From Lysobacterales bacterium (GTDB taxonomy: Bacteria > Pseudomonadota > Gammaproteobacteria > Xanthomonadales > Rhodanobacteraceae), in contig NSJK01000003.1 in assembly GCA_002632325.1 (NCBI GenBank), forward strand, positions 37,957-101,956: 64,000 nucleotides of DNA. The letters run 5' to 3'. Positions 51,406 through 54,543 of the stretch are shown here, piece by piece. The notes under the pieces are model-generated. The model did no database searches. It had not been told where the DNA came from and saw nothing but the letters and a program-made list of their open reading frames with translations. Both the position numbers and the translations under genes were made by a program. Positions within the stretch are counted from its first letter, which is position 1; the number at the start of each line of letters is the position of its first letter.

Positions 51406-53484
51406 ATGTCGGACGCCGAACGCGAAACCCCCATGGAAACCCCGCCTTTCAGCGCGCTTGGCCTGCCGCAGCCGCTGCTTGCCGCGCTGGCCGATGTCGG
51501 CTACGAGACGCCCTCGCCGATCCAGGCCGCGACAATCCCGCCCCTGCTCGAAGGCCGCGACGTGCTCGGTCAGGCACAGACCGGCACCGGCAAGACCGCC
51601 GCGTTTGCGTTGCCGATCCTGGCCCGGCTCGATCTCACCAAGTCCGCGCCGCAGGCGCTGGTGCTCGCGCCCACGCGCGAACTGGCGATCCAGGTGGCCG
51701 AGGCCTTCCAGCGCTACGCCACCCACCTGCCCGGTTTTCGCGTGCTGCCGATCTACGGCGGGCAGGCCTACGGCCCGCAGCTCGGCGGTCTCAAGCGCGG
51801 CGCGCATGTCGTGGTGGGCACGCCCGGGCGCGTGATCGATCACCTGGAACGTGGCTCGCTCGATCTTTCCAAGCTCGACACCCTCGTCCTCGATGAAGCC
51901 GACGAAATGCTGCGCATGGGCTTCATCGACGATGTCGAGAAGGTGCTGCAGAAGACTCCGGAATCGCGCCGCATCGCGCTGTTCTCGGCGACCATGCCGG
52001 CGCCGATCCGGCGCATCGCGCGCGAACACCTGCGCGAGCCGGTCGAGATCGCGATCAAGGCCAAGACCACCACCGCCGCCAACATCCGCCAGCGCTACTG
52101 GTACGTGAGCGGCATGCACAAGCTCGACGCGCTCACGCGCATACTCGAAGTGGAACCCTTCGAGGCGATGATCGTGTTTGCGCGCACCAAGCAGATGACC
52201 GAGGAACTGGCCGAAAAGCTCCAGGCGCGCGGTTTCGACGCCGCCGCGATCAACGGCGACATCGTGCAGGCGCAGCGCGAGCGCCTGATCCAGCAGCTCA
52301 AGGACGGCAAGCTCGACATCCTCGTCGCCACCGATGTCGCCGCGCGCGGGCTCGATGTCGAGCGCATCAGTCACGTGCTCAATTACGACATCCCCACCGA
52401 CACCGAAGCCTACGTGCACCGCATCGGCCGCACCGGCCGCGCCGGGCGCACGGGCGATGCGATCGTGTTCGTCGCCCCGCGCGAGAAACGCATGCTGCAG
52501 GCGATCGAGCGCGCCACGCGCCAGCCGATCGCGGAGATGCAATTGCCCAGCGTGGAAGCGGTCAACGACCAGCGCGTGAGCCGCTTCAAGCAGCGCATCG
52601 CCGACGCGTTGTCATCGGCCGACCTGGGTCTGTTCCGCCCACTCATCGAGCAATTCGAACAGGAACGCAACGTGCCCGCGATCGAAATCGCGGCGGCACT
52701 GGCGAGACTGGTGCAGGGCGATCGCCCCTTGCTCATGCAACCGCCCTCGCGCAGCGAACGCATCGCAGCGCCGGAGCGACCGGCACGCGAACGTGCCCCG
52801 CGCGAATACGAGCGTGCAACGCCGCGCGAGAAGCCATTCGCCGAACGCGCGCCGCGCCCAGCGCGCGAGTACGAGTCTGCAGCCCCGCGAGAGAAGCCAT
52901 TCGCTGAACGATCCGCGCCGCGAGTTCGGCCCACCGCCGAATCGCAAGCGCCTGCGTTTGCACCCGCGCATGCGCCGGCTGCCGCCACATTGCACGACGA
53001 AGGCGCCGGTCGCACGCAGACGCGGCCACCGCGTTCGCACCATCGCGAGGAAGAAGAAAGTCGGCCGCGCGAGCGCCGTGCGCGCGAAGAACACCGCGAA
53101 CGCGCGCCCCACGTGCCCGACGAGGGTCTGGAAACCTTCCGCATCGAAGTCGGTCACGACCACGGCGTCAAACCCGGCAACATCGTCGGCGCGATCGCCA
53201 ACGAAGCGGGCCTCGACAGCAAGTACATCGGCCGCGTCGACATCCAGAGCGACCACAGCTTCGTCGACCTGCCATCGGGCATGCCCGCGGAAATATTCAA
53301 ACATCTGAAGAAGGTATGGGTGTCGGGTCAGCAGTTGCGCATCACGCGCGGCGGCGAAACGCCCGAGTTCGGCAAGCCGCGCACGCCCAAGGGTCCCCCG
53401 CAGGTCCGGGGCGGCAAACCCGGTGGCTTCGACCGACCCAAGCGACCCGCGCCGCACAAGGGCGGAAAGCATGGAAGAGATTGA
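51406..53484 (+). CDS. deaD: DEAD-box ATP-dependent RNA helicase (DeaD/CsdA-like) with long basic C-terminal extension and DbpA-type RNA-binding domain
   Basis: In frame within ORF 51154..53484; ATG 51406 (or 51433). Q motif ..TPSPIQ, AQTGTGKT, PTRELA, DEADEML, SAT, ..VATDVAARGLD.., HRIGRTGRAG. C-terminal FRIEVGHDHGVKPGNIVGAIANEAG.. Confidence 0.9.
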   Translation: MSDAERETPMETPPFSALGLPQPLLAALADVGYETPSPIQAATIPPLLEGRDVLGQAQTGTGKTAAFALPILARLDLTKSAPQALVLAPTRELAIQVAEAFQRYATHLPGFRVLPIYGGQAYGPQLGGLKRGAHVVVGTPGRVIDHLERGSLDLSKLDTLVLDEADEMLRMGFIDDVEKVLQKTPESRRIALFSATMPAPIRRIAREHLREPVEIAIKAKTTTAANIRQRYWYVSGMHKLDALTRILEVEPFEAMIVFARTKQMTEELAEKLQARGFDAAAINGDIVQAQRERLIQQLKDGKLDILVATDVAARGLDVERISHVLNYDIPTDTEAYVHRIGRTGRAGRTGDAIVFVAPREKRMLQAIERATRQPIAEMQLPSVEAVNDQRVSRFKQRIADALSSADLGLFRPLIEQFEQERNVPAIEIAAALARLVQGDRPLLMQPPSRSERIAAPERPARERAPREYERATPREKPFAERAPRPAREYESAAPREKPFAERSAPRVRPTAESQAPAFAPAHAPAAATLHDEGAGRTQTRPPRSHHREEEESRPRERRAREEHRERAPHVPDEGLETFRIEVGHDHGVKPGNIVGAIANEAGLDSKYIGRVDIQSDHSFVDLPSGMPAEIFKHLKKVWVSGQQLRITRGGETPEFGKPRTPKGPPQVRGGKPGGFDRPKRPAPHKGGKHGRD

Positions 53485-54465
53485 AACACGGAGCACACGA
53501 AGAACACGAAGAACACGAAAGTGATGCAGCGCCAGCAAAAGATGAAGAAGAAATGCTCTTGATCTTCCTTCGTATTGCTCTTGATCTTCCTTCGTATTGC
53601 TCTTGATCTTCCTTCGTGTTCTTCGTGTTCTTCGTGTTTCAGGCTTTGGCCTTGTTCATTGAACGACCCGCGCCGCGCAAGGGCGAAAAGCATGGAAGAG
53701 ATTGAAACACGGAGCACACGAAGAACACGAAGAACACGAAAGTGATGCAGCGCCAGCAAAAGATGAAGAAGAAATGCTCTTGATCTTCCTTCGTATTGCT
53801 CTTGATCTTCCTTCGTATTGCTCTTGATCTTCCTTCGTGTTCTTCGTGTTCTTCGTGTTTCAGGCTTTGGCCTTGTTCATTGAACGACCCGCGCCGCGCA
53901 AGGGCGAAAAGCATGGAAGAGATTGAAACACGGAGCACACGAAGAACACGAAGAACACGAAAGTGATGCAGCGCCAGCAAAAGATGAAGAAGAAATGCTC
54001 TTGATCTTCCTTCGTATTGCTCTTGATCTTCCTTCGTGTTCTTCGTGTTCTTCGTGTTTCAGGCTTTGGCCTTGTTCATTGAACGACCCGCGCCGCGCAA
54101 GGGCGGAAAGCATGGAAGAGATTGAAACACGGAGCACACGAAGAACACGAAGACCACGAAAGTGAAGCAGTGCCAGCAGAAGATGAAGTAGAAGAAATGC
54201 TCTTGATCTTCCTTCGTGTTGCTCTTGATCTTCCTCCGTGTTCTTCGTGTTCTTCGTGTTTCAGGCTTTGGCCTTGTTCACTAAGCGACCCGCGCCGCGC
54301 AAGGGCGGAAAGCATGGAAGAGATTGAAACACGGAGCACACGGAGAACACGAAGACCACGAAAGTGAAGCAGTGCCAGCAGAAGATGAAGAAGAAGTGCT
54401 TTTGATCTTCCTTCGTGTTCTTCGTGTTTCAGGCTTTGGCCTTGTTCATCGATCCGGCGCGGCTT
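53461..54465. repeat. Five tandem units (221, 221, 199, 202 and about 150 bp) of a low-GC repeat with nested 22-bp sub-repeats and a long inverted repeat; unit 1 overlaps the deaD 3' end
   Basis: The string gcatggaagagattgaaacacgg recurs at 53469, 53690, 53911, 54110 and 54312. Each unit has ACACGAAGAACACGAAGAACACGAA ... TTCGTGTTCTTCGTGTTCTTCGTGT arms and 3, 3, 2, 2 or 1 copies of tgctcttgatcttccttcgt(a/g)t. Confidence 0.95.
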
Positions 54466-54543
54466 GGGGCGTTCCAGTCTCAGGTCTTGCTCATGCCGTC
54501 GGGCGCAGGTGTCGGGCAGCGGCTTGATCGGCGTGGCCCTGAA

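What the first reader, a model, noticed from the sequence alone, without database searches (positions are those of the whole stretch)
53440..54470. Five-copy 199-221 bp tandem repeat with nested 22-bp VNTR and ~25-bp inverted arms, fused to the 3' end of deaD
Seen: units start at about 53469, 53690, 53911, 54110 and 54312. Each unit has GAAACACG..ACGAAGAACACGAAGAACACGAA on the left and TTCGTGTTCTTCGTGTTCTTCGTGTTTC on the right, which can form a long hairpin. The loop holds 3, 3, 2, 2 or 1 copies of tgctcttgatcttccttcgt(a/g)t, which accounts for the 22-bp length differences. Spot count gives GC of about 45%, against about 70% in the flanks. The unit boundary segment (gacccgcgccgc(g/a)caagggcg(g/a)aaagcatggaagagattga) also encodes the last ~14 codons and the stop of deaD, so the deaD C-terminus (..RPAPHKGGKHGRD*) is part of repeat unit 1. 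The array sits at the junction between the plus-strand block and nadD. It is not CRISPR-like because the inter-repeat sequences are identical, and I see no coding signal. Possible roles, all inference: a structured 3'-UTR or sRNA array for the cold-shock helicase, a protein-binding platform, or a MITE-like or satellite scar of the rearrangement that split nadD from rsfS.
Basis: seen in the sequence. Interest (0 to 1): 0.75.

Follow-up and report, generated by a model that had tools for sequence, protein, structure and literature searches.

The report
Amplified relic of hairpin gene cassette
The five-copy repeat after the deaD helicase gene is real: it is an empty, locally duplicated copy of a widespread selfish hairpin cassette that elsewhere carries a small nuclease gene, and it overwrote the last few codons of deaD, so it is a mobile-element relic and not a dedicated regulator.

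Summary
There are five tandem units (221, 221, 199, 202 and about 165 nt) at 53443-54449. Each has about 30-nt inverted arms, and the units hold 3, 3, 2, 2 and 1 copies of a 22-nt repeat. GC is 0.47-0.52 against about 0.68 in the flanks.

The arms are tandem CACGAAG-type heptads. The same arms occur as hairpins at many unrelated loci in Dokdonella and in several other phyla. In some Dokdonella loci they enclose a GxxExxY (PD-(D/E)XK, PF13366) gene.

In 75 metagenome loci chosen only by that protein, 56 have matching inverted heptad arms (2 in shuffled controls). Genes of the 23S rRNA intervening-sequence protein family (PF05635) have the same architecture with other heptads.

The window unit, read on the minus strand, matches the 5' arm plus leader of the gene-carrying cassettes (40/41 and 37/37 nt) but has no ORF.

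Relatives without the element end DeaD in ..RKPPR*. Here the sequence after R-K is replaced by element sequence (GGKHGRD*). Each unit also contains about 18 nt of genuine deaD, so the array grew by local duplication.

A sister species has an independent two-copy duplication. Short-read assemblies break inside the array, so the copy number of five is not independently verified. I found no evidence for a dedicated function.

The parts
51406..53484 (+). deaD (DEAD-box RNA helicase, 692 aa). The last 8 codons including the stop (53461-53484) are element-derived.
   Evidence: The same gene is called in L061. The best named homologues are all Dokdonella DeaD. C-termini are compared.
53443..53460 (+). 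Genuine deaD codons (R P A P H K) that are included in every repeat unit.
   Evidence: These codons are homologous to ..RPPPKK.. and ..PARK.. in relatives that lack the element. They are repeated at the start of units 2-5.
53461..53484 (+). Element-derived tail of deaD (G G K H G R D stop). The sequence AGAGATTGAAAC is the outer part of the cassette's inverted repeat.
   Evidence: Homology to the DeaD of relatives stops after CGC/CAC AAG. The same AGAGATTGAA(A/C)CACG terminus is seen in cassettes L070 and L071.
53443..53663 (.). Unit 1 (221 nt, three 22-mers).
53664..53884 (.). Unit 2 (221 nt, three 22-mers).
53885..54083 (.). Unit 3 (199 nt, two 22-mers).
54084..54285 (.). Unit 4 (202 nt, two 22-mers). 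It shares substitutions with unit 5.
   Evidence: The u4/u5 junction is identical in L062.
54286..54449 (.). Unit 5 (about 165 nt, one 22-mer, shortened right arm). Unique DNA follows.
53482..53521 (+). Left arm of unit 1: TGAAA + CACGGAG/CACGAAG heptads. Equivalent arms start at 53703, 53924, 54123 and 54325.
53612..53641 (+). Right arm of unit 1: (CTTCGTGTT)x3 + TCA. Equivalent arms are at 53833-53862, 54032-54061, 54234-54263 and 54411-54431.
53554..53619 (-). 22-nt repeat block of unit 1. On the minus strand it reads ACGAAGGAAGATCAAGAGCA, which is the last heptad plus the 5' leader of gene-carrying cassettes. The other blocks are at 53775-53840, 53996-54039, 54198-54241 and 54397-54418.
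   Evidence: There is a 17/17 match to the L071 leader, and the arm plus leader match 40/41 to L071 and 37/37 to L034.
54544..55197 (-). nadD, convergent with deaD. The array fills the gap between the two stop codons.

Best explanation
The array is a tandemly amplified, ORF-less copy of a hairpin-bounded gene cassette.

The cassette family has two arms made of tandem heptads (C-R-Y-N-R-A-G; here CACGAAG or CACGGAG with 2-nt spacers). The arms run in inverted orientation around a loop. In full-length members the loop holds a roughly 120-aa GxxExxY / PD-(D/E)XK protein gene.

Shown:
1. One copy landed on the end of deaD in the common ancestor of this Dokdonella species and a sister species. It replaced the last three codons and the stop with eight element-encoded codons, including a stop that is the first three bases of the arm.
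2. The cassette has no ORF here.
3. The locus then expanded by duplication. Every level of internal repetition varies: the 9-nt heptad plus spacer, the 22-nt leader, the GGCTTT hexamer and the whole 200-290-nt unit.

Inferred:
1. The ORF was once present and was lost.
2. The expansion occurred by replication slippage or unequal recombination.
3. The family spreads as a selfish element, and the PD-(D/E)XK protein is the likely mobility nuclease.
4. At this locus the element has no dedicated function.
5. When transcribed as the deaD 3' UTR, or from the nadD side, each unit forms a 25-30-bp stem, long enough to be an RNase III substrate. It may therefore incidentally affect 3'-end processing or stability, and may separate the two convergent transcripts.
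For: 1. Dispersed family. A 21-nt arm pattern hit 60 stretches in the genome collection. These include 18 loci in 10 Dokdonella genomes, plus Planctomycetota, Acidobacteriota, Chloroflexota, Alphaproteobacteria and others. Nearly all are left-arm/loop/right-arm hairpins.

2. Cargo. In L034, L052 and L053 (a decayed copy) the arms enclose a GxxExxY gene (TIGR04256 E 1e-43; PF13366 E 1e-42) between pntAA and pntAB.

3. Unbiased test. Of 75 metagenome loci picked by the protein alone, 56 have flanking inverted repeats scoring at least 10 (2 in shuffles). 43 score at least 12, against 0 in shuffles and 18 of 300 when flanks of different loci are swapped. The heptad type varies between loci (CACGAAG, CACAGAG, CGCAGAG, CGCCGAG and others), yet 1024 of 1103 stem positions are Watson-Crick pairs.

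4. Homology of the window unit to the cassettes. The minus strand matches the arm plus leader 40/41 (L071) and 37/37 (L034), and the 3' arm plus outer CAATCTCTT 36/39. No GxxExxY remnant is detectable.

5. Insertion polymorphism. The element is present in this species and in the species whose DeaD is 89% identical (L066). It is absent in L069, L150 and L151, where DeaD ends ..KKPSR*..KKPTR* or ..RKPPR*.

6. Growth by duplication. Every unit starts with the deaD codons RPAP(H/R)K. L066 has an independent two-copy duplication with a different, roughly 293-nt unit.

7. Compensatory arm changes between the two species: CACGAAG-AA paired with TT-CTTCGTG here, against CACGGAG-CA paired with TG-CTCCGTG in L066.

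8. Strong folds on both strands (z -4.8 and -4.9) and for the whole array (z -10.8).
Against: - No target-site duplication or other insertion signature was found, and no transposition mechanism is demonstrated.
- Only 3 of the 60 arm-selected loci carry the ORF. Viral contigs hold many short heptad hairpins without any ORF. The hairpin could therefore be the primary element and the ORF a later invader of its loop.
- Stem mismatches show no strand asymmetry (G-T/T-G 22 against A-C/C-A 25). There is thus no positive evidence that the RNA form is under selection.
- Retention in two species, with amplification in both, could reflect some benefit.
- There are no expression data.
Confidence: 0.7

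Rival explanations
1. It is a dedicated cis-regulatory 3' UTR or an array of small RNAs for the cold-shock helicase DeaD. For example, temperature-sensitive hairpins could control mRNA decay.
For: The array lies directly after the deaD stop codon. Its folds are very stable. It is retained and amplified in two species.
Against: The same arms occur at unrelated loci and in unrelated phyla. The element is absent from the deaD of most Dokdonella. No Rfam family matches. Both strands fold equally well. Copy number and unit boundaries are unstable.
Confidence: 0.08
2. It is an active non-autonomous MITE that inserted repeatedly next to itself, mobilised in trans.
For: It has terminal inverted repeats, is small and non-coding, and belongs to a dispersed arm family. 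Nested and adjacent elements occur in other Dokdonella loci (L027, L031, L033, L043).
Against: Each unit carries about 18 nt of deaD coding sequence plus about 20 nt of right-flank sequence. The unit is therefore larger than the element. No target-site duplication was seen. The loop sequence is found only at the orthologous locus. No transposase is associated.
Confidence: 0.1
3. The heptad hairpin is an ordinary host intergenic structure (a terminator or processing site) that evolves by slippage. Small selfish ORFs (GxxExxY, IVS protein) later insert into hairpin loops. On this view the array consists of never-occupied hairpins, not relics.
For: ORF-less heptad hairpins with short loops are abundant in viral and genomic contigs. 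rRNA IVSs replace the loops of pre-existing helices (PMC4990558).
Against: The window loop shares the asymmetric 11-nt leader GGAAGATCAAGA with occupied cassettes. The element is an insertion relative to close relatives. Arm type tracks protein similarity in the GxxExxY set.
Confidence: 0.1
4. It is an assembly artefact, either a collapsed or an over-expanded repeat.
For: Five contigs from other assemblies of the species end inside the array, and one assembly spans it with only two units.
Against: The u4/u5 junction and flanks are 100% identical in independent assemblies. Units carry diagnostic substitutions. A sister species has its own two-copy array.
Confidence: 0.02

Closest known systems
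rRNA intervening sequences (IVS) with an ORF, as in Coxiella burnetii and Leptospira 23S rRNA
   Same: An IVS is a few hundred nt long and bounded by terminal inverted repeats that form a stem of about 28 bp. Some carry a small ORF in the loop and some do not. Their GC is below that of the host, and their distribution is sporadic and suggests horizontal transfer. RNase III cuts the stem (PMC4990558). PF05635 (IVS protein) genes outside rRNA also sit between inverted arrays of tandem heptads.
   Different: The element here is not in rRNA. Its relatives carry PF13366 (GxxExxY), not PF05635. Here there is no ORF, and the element is tandemly amplified. I did not check heptad arms in rRNA IVSs, and RNase III cleavage is untested.
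MITEs such as Neisseria Correia elements or enterobacterial ERIC/IRU (comparison from my own knowledge)
   Same: They are short, non-coding, bounded by inverted repeats and dispersed. They are co-transcribed with neighbouring genes as hairpins, and they sometimes overlap gene ends.
   Different: No target-site duplication was seen. Copies share only the arms and not the interior. The full-length partner encodes a PD-(D/E)XK protein and not a known transposase. Near-identical arm sequences occur across phyla.
REP / BIME / REPIN clusters with RAYT transposases (PMC3733652, PMC3116915)
   Same: They are extragenic palindromes at gene ends and often form tandem clusters of alternating orientation.
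   Different: There is no GTAG or CGTC tag. The arms are 30 nt with 80-100-nt loops, whereas REPs are 20-40-nt palindromes. A classical GTAG-REP cluster sits elsewhere in this window (12343-12973) and looks quite different.
Rickettsia palindromic elements (from my own knowledge)
   Same: They are palindromic elements that insert into coding sequence and contribute codons to host proteins.
   Different: Here only the last 8 codons including the stop are donated, and most of the element is downstream of the gene.

Membership tests
   The window arms are CACGGAG/CACGAAG x3-4 and CTTCGTG x3.
   40/41 (L071), 37/37 (L034), and 36/39 on the 3' side.
   tblastn finds nothing in the window. The loops are 78-100 nt. 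The window units are therefore ORF-less derivatives, not full members.
MITE | Terminal inverted repeats, small size, non-coding. | tested here: met
MITE | Target-site duplication flanking the element. | tested here: inconclusive
   No clean direct repeat is present. Only a 14/22 similarity exists between the CGACCCGCGCCGCGCAAGGGCG (left) and CGATCCGGCGCGGCTTGGGGCG (right) flanks. None is seen at the pntA-site cassettes.
MITE | Many near-identical full-length copies dispersed in the genome. | tested here: not met
   The loop matches only the orthologous loci L066 and L068. There is no other copy in 64 kb. The whole genome could not be scanned.
MITE | An autonomous partner with the same ends that encodes a transposase. 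| tested here: inconclusive
   Partners with the same ends encode a PD-(D/E)XK protein of unknown activity. PADLOC gives only a weak Cas4b-like hit.
REP/BIME | A 20-40-nt palindrome with a GTAG or CGTC tag. | tested here: not met
   The arms start TGAAAC and have no tag. Contrast the true GTAG-REP array at 12343-12973.
rRNA intervening sequence | Inserted in an rRNA helix and excised by RNase III. | tested here: not met
   The element lies between deaD and nadD, and the window has no rRNA. RNase III cleavage is not testable here.
rRNA intervening sequence | Terminal inverted repeats forming a stem of 20 bp or more around a loop that may hold a small ORF. | tested here: met
CRISPR array | Identical repeats separated by unique spacers. 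| tested here: not met
   The inter-arm segments are themselves repeated.
Any Rfam RNA family | Score at or above the family's gathering threshold. | tested here: not met
   There are no hits at gathering threshold in the window or in 18 cassette loci. Only sub-threshold plant miRNA-precursor models match, which indicates a generic long hairpin.
Intrinsic terminator | A short GC-rich stem followed by a T-run. | tested here: not met
   No terminator-like site was found inside the array.

The most novel reading that the evidence does not exclude
Hairpins whose arms are tandem heptads mark a cross-phylum class of selfish gene cassettes that I could not find described. The class has at least two cargo families: the PF13366 GxxExxY nuclease-like proteins and the PF05635 '23S rRNA IVS' proteins. 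The ORF-bearing rRNA intervening sequences would be the special case that landed in rRNA. ORF-less hairpins such as this array would be their relics or non-autonomous forms. The PD-(D/E)XK protein would act on the extruded hairpin to drive spread, and possibly local amplification.
Probability: 0.3. Interest if true: 0.8.

Novelty: new variant of a known kind. Interest (0 to 1): 0.5.

Why it matters
- It turns an unexplained 'satellite' into a recognisable object: a decayed, amplified mobile hairpin cassette that rewrote the end of a housekeeping gene.
- It exposes a simple architectural signature, a small ORF between inverted arrays of tandem heptads. Two very abundant families of uncharacterised small proteins share it, and one of them is the protein encoded in rRNA intervening sequences. 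The origin and mobility of those sequences have been unclear since they were first described (PMC4990558). The many non-rRNA copies offer material for testing how they move.
- There is a practical consequence. Such arrays break short-read assemblies: five contigs from other assemblies of this species end inside this one. They also alter called C-termini.

Tried and rejected
- **Rfam.** The E-value mode on the region gave only sub-threshold plant miRNA-precursor hits, meaning a generic hairpin. Gathering mode on the whole window and on 18 cassette loci gave nothing.
- **Literature.** Searches for the arm 16-mers, GxxExxY, PF13366, PF05635, S23 protein and heptanucleotide hairpins found nothing on these arms. 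One 11-mer hit in a circular-RNA preprint is a chance hammerhead-like match.
- **BLAST.** blastn of one unit against plasmid and phage records gave no match.
- **Synteny among arm-pattern loci.** None of the 60 loci holds deaD, nadD or holA.
- **Strand test.** Stem mismatches are G-T/T-G 22 against A-C/C-A 25, so they carry no strand information.
- **Stop-codon donation.** I asked whether element termini generally donate stop codons to upstream genes. The in-frame fraction was 23%, against 14% and 20% in the other frames. This is not informative in GC-rich DNA.
- **Target-site duplication.** None is convincing.
- **Coding hypothesis** (HEEHEEHE-type peptide ORFs). Rejected because unit lengths are 221, 199 and 202 nt, and the heptad period is 8-11 nt in other members.
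- **Iteron or origin-like platform.** Rejected because there is no replication gene and the repeats always come as inverted pairs.
- **GxxExxY function.** PADLOC and a PDB sequence search added no functional information.
- **Other loop ORFs.** Two loop ORFs from viral contigs have no Pfam match.
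Full report
**1.

Tandem Repeats Finder reports a 221-nt period (2.7 copies, 99% match, 53443-54037) that merges into a 199-nt period (3.1 copies, 95%, 53797-54416). 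The repeat finder places five copies with spacings of 221, 221, 199 and 202 nt. The alignment shows that units 1-3 are nearly identical and that units 4-5 share a set of substitutions.

The length differences come from a nested 22-nt repeat, present 3, 3, 2, 2 and 1 times (11 copies, none expected by chance). Each unit has a left arm TGAAACACGGAGCACACGAAGAACACGAAG and a right arm CTTCGTGTTCTTCGTGTTCTTCGTGTTTCA. The arms are 30 nt at 87-93% complementarity with a 25-nt perfect core, and the loops are 78-100 nt.

GC is 0.47-0.52 in the array and 0.64-0.72 around it. The deaD ORF ends ..RPAPHKGGKHGRD* at 53484, and its TGA is the first three bases of the first left arm. No other copy of the arm, the 22-mer or the junction exists in the 64-kb window.

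**2. Organism and independent assemblies**

DeaD's closest named relatives are all from Dokdonella. An ENA record names the species Dokdonella_A sp002632325.

Looking up the exact HolA and DeaD proteins found other assemblies of the same species:
- Contigs L062-L065 are 100% identical to the window up to their ends, which fall at window 54250 or 54420, inside the right arms of units 4 and 5.
- L068 is 99.6% identical and ends inside the second unit.
- L061 spans the locus with 99.9% identical flanks but only two units.

The repeat is therefore real. At least two units and the u4/u5 junction are independently seen. It breaks short-read assemblies, and the copy number of five is unverified.

**3. 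The arms belong to a dispersed, cross-phylum hairpin family**

I scanned the genome collection for TGAAACACGRAGMACACGAAG and found 60 stretches. Eighteen are in ten Dokdonella genomes, at loci unrelated to deaD. The rest are in Planctomycetota, Acidobacteriota, Chloroflexota, Alphaproteobacteria, Burkholderiales and unclassified MAGs.

Reading them shows the same plan almost everywhere:
- an outer (GAAAGAT)TGAAAC;
- two to five heptads of the CACGAAG, CACAAAG, CACCAAG or CACGGAG type with 1-4-nt spacers;
- a loop of 20 to about 450 nt;
- the complementary heptads, then GTTTCA(ATCTTTC).

Nested and adjacent elements occur in Dokdonella (L027, L031, L033, L043).

**4. Full-length members carry a small nuclease-like gene**

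In D. ginsengisoli (L034) and Dokdonella ACE_PRO70 (L052), the arms enclose a roughly 123-aa ORF inserted between pntAA and pntAB. A frame-shifted copy is present in a Lysobacterales MAG (L053). The ORF is a GxxExxY protein (TIGR04256, E 1e-43) of the PD-(D/E)XK superfamily (PF13366, E 1e-42).

To test the association without selecting on the arms, I fetched 80 metagenome loci using the protein only. Of the 75 loci with at least 60 nt on both sides:
- 56 have an upstream/downstream inverted repeat scoring at least 10, against 2 in shuffled controls.
- 43 score at least 12, against 0 in shuffles and 18 of 300 when flanks from different loci are paired.

The arms are tandem heptads of the form C-R-Y-N-R-A-G. 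The actual heptad differs between loci (CACGAAG, CACAGAG, CGCAGAG, CGCCGAG, CGCGGAG, CACCAAG, CATGAAG, CGCAAAG). Even so, 1024 of 1103 stem positions remain Watson-Crick pairs. That is covariation on a large scale. What is kept is the architecture: a hairpin with periodic arms, purine-rich on the 5' side.

Stem mismatches show no strand bias (22 G-T type against 25 A-C type). This gives no evidence that one RNA strand in particular is under selection.

**5. The window units are ORF-less derivatives**

Read on the minus strand, a window unit matches the 5' arm plus the adjacent asymmetric leader of the gene-carrying cassettes. The shared sequence is TGAA(A/C)CACGAAGAACACGAAGAACACGAAGGAAGATCAAGA. 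The match is 40/41 to L071 and 37/37 to L034. The 3' arm plus the outer CAATCTCTT matches 36/39.

The 22-nt repeat is the last heptad plus this leader (17/17). No remnant of the protein is detectable. The loop as a whole is found only at the orthologous loci (L066, L068), so the element is not a member of a homogeneous MITE subfamily.

**6. How it came to overlap deaD, and how the array grew**

DeaD of other Dokdonella ends ..GGFDRPKRPxxKKP(S/T)R* or ..RRPPARKPPR*. In L151 the stop is followed by 55 nt and then the nadD stop. In L069 and L150 GC-rich unique DNA follows. None of these loci has the element.

Homology to the window runs through ..AAG CGA CCC GCG CCG CAC AAG (K R P A P H K) and stops there. 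The next eight codons, GGC GGA AAG CAT GGA AGA GAT TGA, are part of the element's outer inverted repeat. AGAGATTGAAAC is also the terminus in L070 and L071.

Every unit of the array begins with the deaD codons CGACCCGCGCCGC(A/G)CAAG. The unit is therefore larger than the element, and the array grew by local duplication and not by repeated insertion.

The species whose DeaD is 89% identical (L066) has the element at the same position, so the insertion predates the split. It carries an independent two-copy duplication with a different unit of about 293 nt. That unit includes about 85 nt of downstream DNA, two and three 22-mers, and a GGCTTT hexamer expanded to four copies.

Between the two species the arms changed in a compensated way. 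The pairing is CACGAAG-AA with TT-CTTCGTG here, and CACGGAG-CA with TG-CTCCGTG there.

**7. Link to rRNA intervening sequences**

The closest described objects are IVSs. The Coxiella IVS is 428 nt, is bounded by inverted repeats forming a 28-bp stem, carries a small ORF, has lower GC than its genome, and is cut by RNase III. Its origin is called unclear (PMC4990558).

I searched viral contigs with a consensus of the 'four helix bundle' family that I wrote from memory and obtained 19 loci. Three of the proteins were tested and are PF05635, the 23S rRNA IVS protein family (E 1e-34 to 2.5e-39). These genes too lie between inverted arrays of tandem 6-8-nt units, although the units differ (AGTGGGT, GTAGGGA, CAACGTT, GGCTGTT, GTAGTCT). 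Nine of the 19 score at least 12, with shuffles never above 9.

So two unrelated small-protein families share this cassette architecture. Most are short hairpins without an ORF, and several occur per contig.

**8. What it most likely does here**

- Shown: it is an insertion; it has no ORF; it is amplified; it supplies deaD's last codons and stop.
- Inferred: it once carried the ORF and lost it, and it is a passenger.

As RNA, each unit folds well on both strands (z -4.8 and -4.9). The whole array folds at -408 kcal/mol (z -10.8). Its stems are 25-30 bp, the size RNase III needs. It could therefore incidentally shape the 3' end of deaD mRNA, or act as a barrier between the convergent deaD and nadD transcripts.

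No canonical terminator or promoter is predicted in the array. As DNA, long inverted repeats combined with direct repeats are known to promote slippage and unequal exchange. This fits the variation seen at every repeat level.

**9. What remains open**

- The mobility mechanism is unknown, and no target-site duplication was seen.
- It is unclear whether hairpin and ORF move together or whether ORFs invade pre-existing hairpins.
- It is unclear whether the PD-(D/E)XK protein is the mobility enzyme.

I found no Rfam family and no paper describing these arms. The searchable library is incomplete, so I claim only that I could not find a description.

Noticed in passing
window 12343-12973: There is a second tandem array of eight 80-nt units. 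Each unit holds two GC-rich palindromes in opposite orientation (GTAGAGCGGAGCTTGCTCCGCT and GAGCCGAGCAAGCTCGGCTCTAC). This is a classical GTAG-tagged REP/BIME-like cluster and is unrelated to the deaD array. A 456-aa mechanical ORF (11330-12700, minus strand) overlaps it and is probably spurious there.
   Followed up: partly
L274-L287 (viral contigs): Genes of the PF05635 '23S rRNA intervening sequence protein' family are flanked by inverted arrays of tandem 6-8-nt repeats. The repeat unit differs from locus to locus. The architecture is the same as around GxxExxY genes.
   Followed up: partly
L170 and L189 (viral contigs): Intergenic regions are packed with several different purine-rich short tandem repeats besides CACGAAG (GGCAACG, CAGAAGG, CACAGATGAA, GACGGAAG). 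There are five or six heptad arms per 12-14 kb.
   Followed up: no
L034, L052, L053, L070, L071: The same insertion site, between the transhydrogenase genes pntAA and pntAB, holds a GxxExxY cassette in five Dokdonella or Lysobacterales genomes and contigs. The copy in L053 is frame-shifted. This suggests an old insertion inside an operon, now decaying in one lineage.
   Followed up: partly
L031 3594-3785 and L043 about 2700-2890: One hairpin element lies inside the loop of another. The outer arms are CACGAAG-type and the inner arms CACGGAG-type.
   Followed up: no
window 44550-51300 compared with L069 and L150: In this species and in L066, deaD is preceded by three beta-helix/NosD-like genes and a CHAT/TPR gene. 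In two other Dokdonella relatives rsfS-rlmH lie directly upstream of deaD, and an unannotated gene of about 515 aa lies between deaD and nadD. Gene order around deaD is therefore fluid in the genus, independently of the repeat.
   Followed up: no
L035 7167-7807 and L048: In a Chloroflexia MAG, a single CACGAAG arm sits between two ORFs whose products look phage-like by eye (unverified). No partner arm was detected.
   Followed up: no
P0001 / L068 compared with window 53455-53457: Another assembly of the same species has DeaD ending RPAPRKGGKHGRD, with R as in the internal units, where the window has H. Its first unit is also a chimera of window unit types. This indicates either recombination between units or an assembly chimera.
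   Followed up: no
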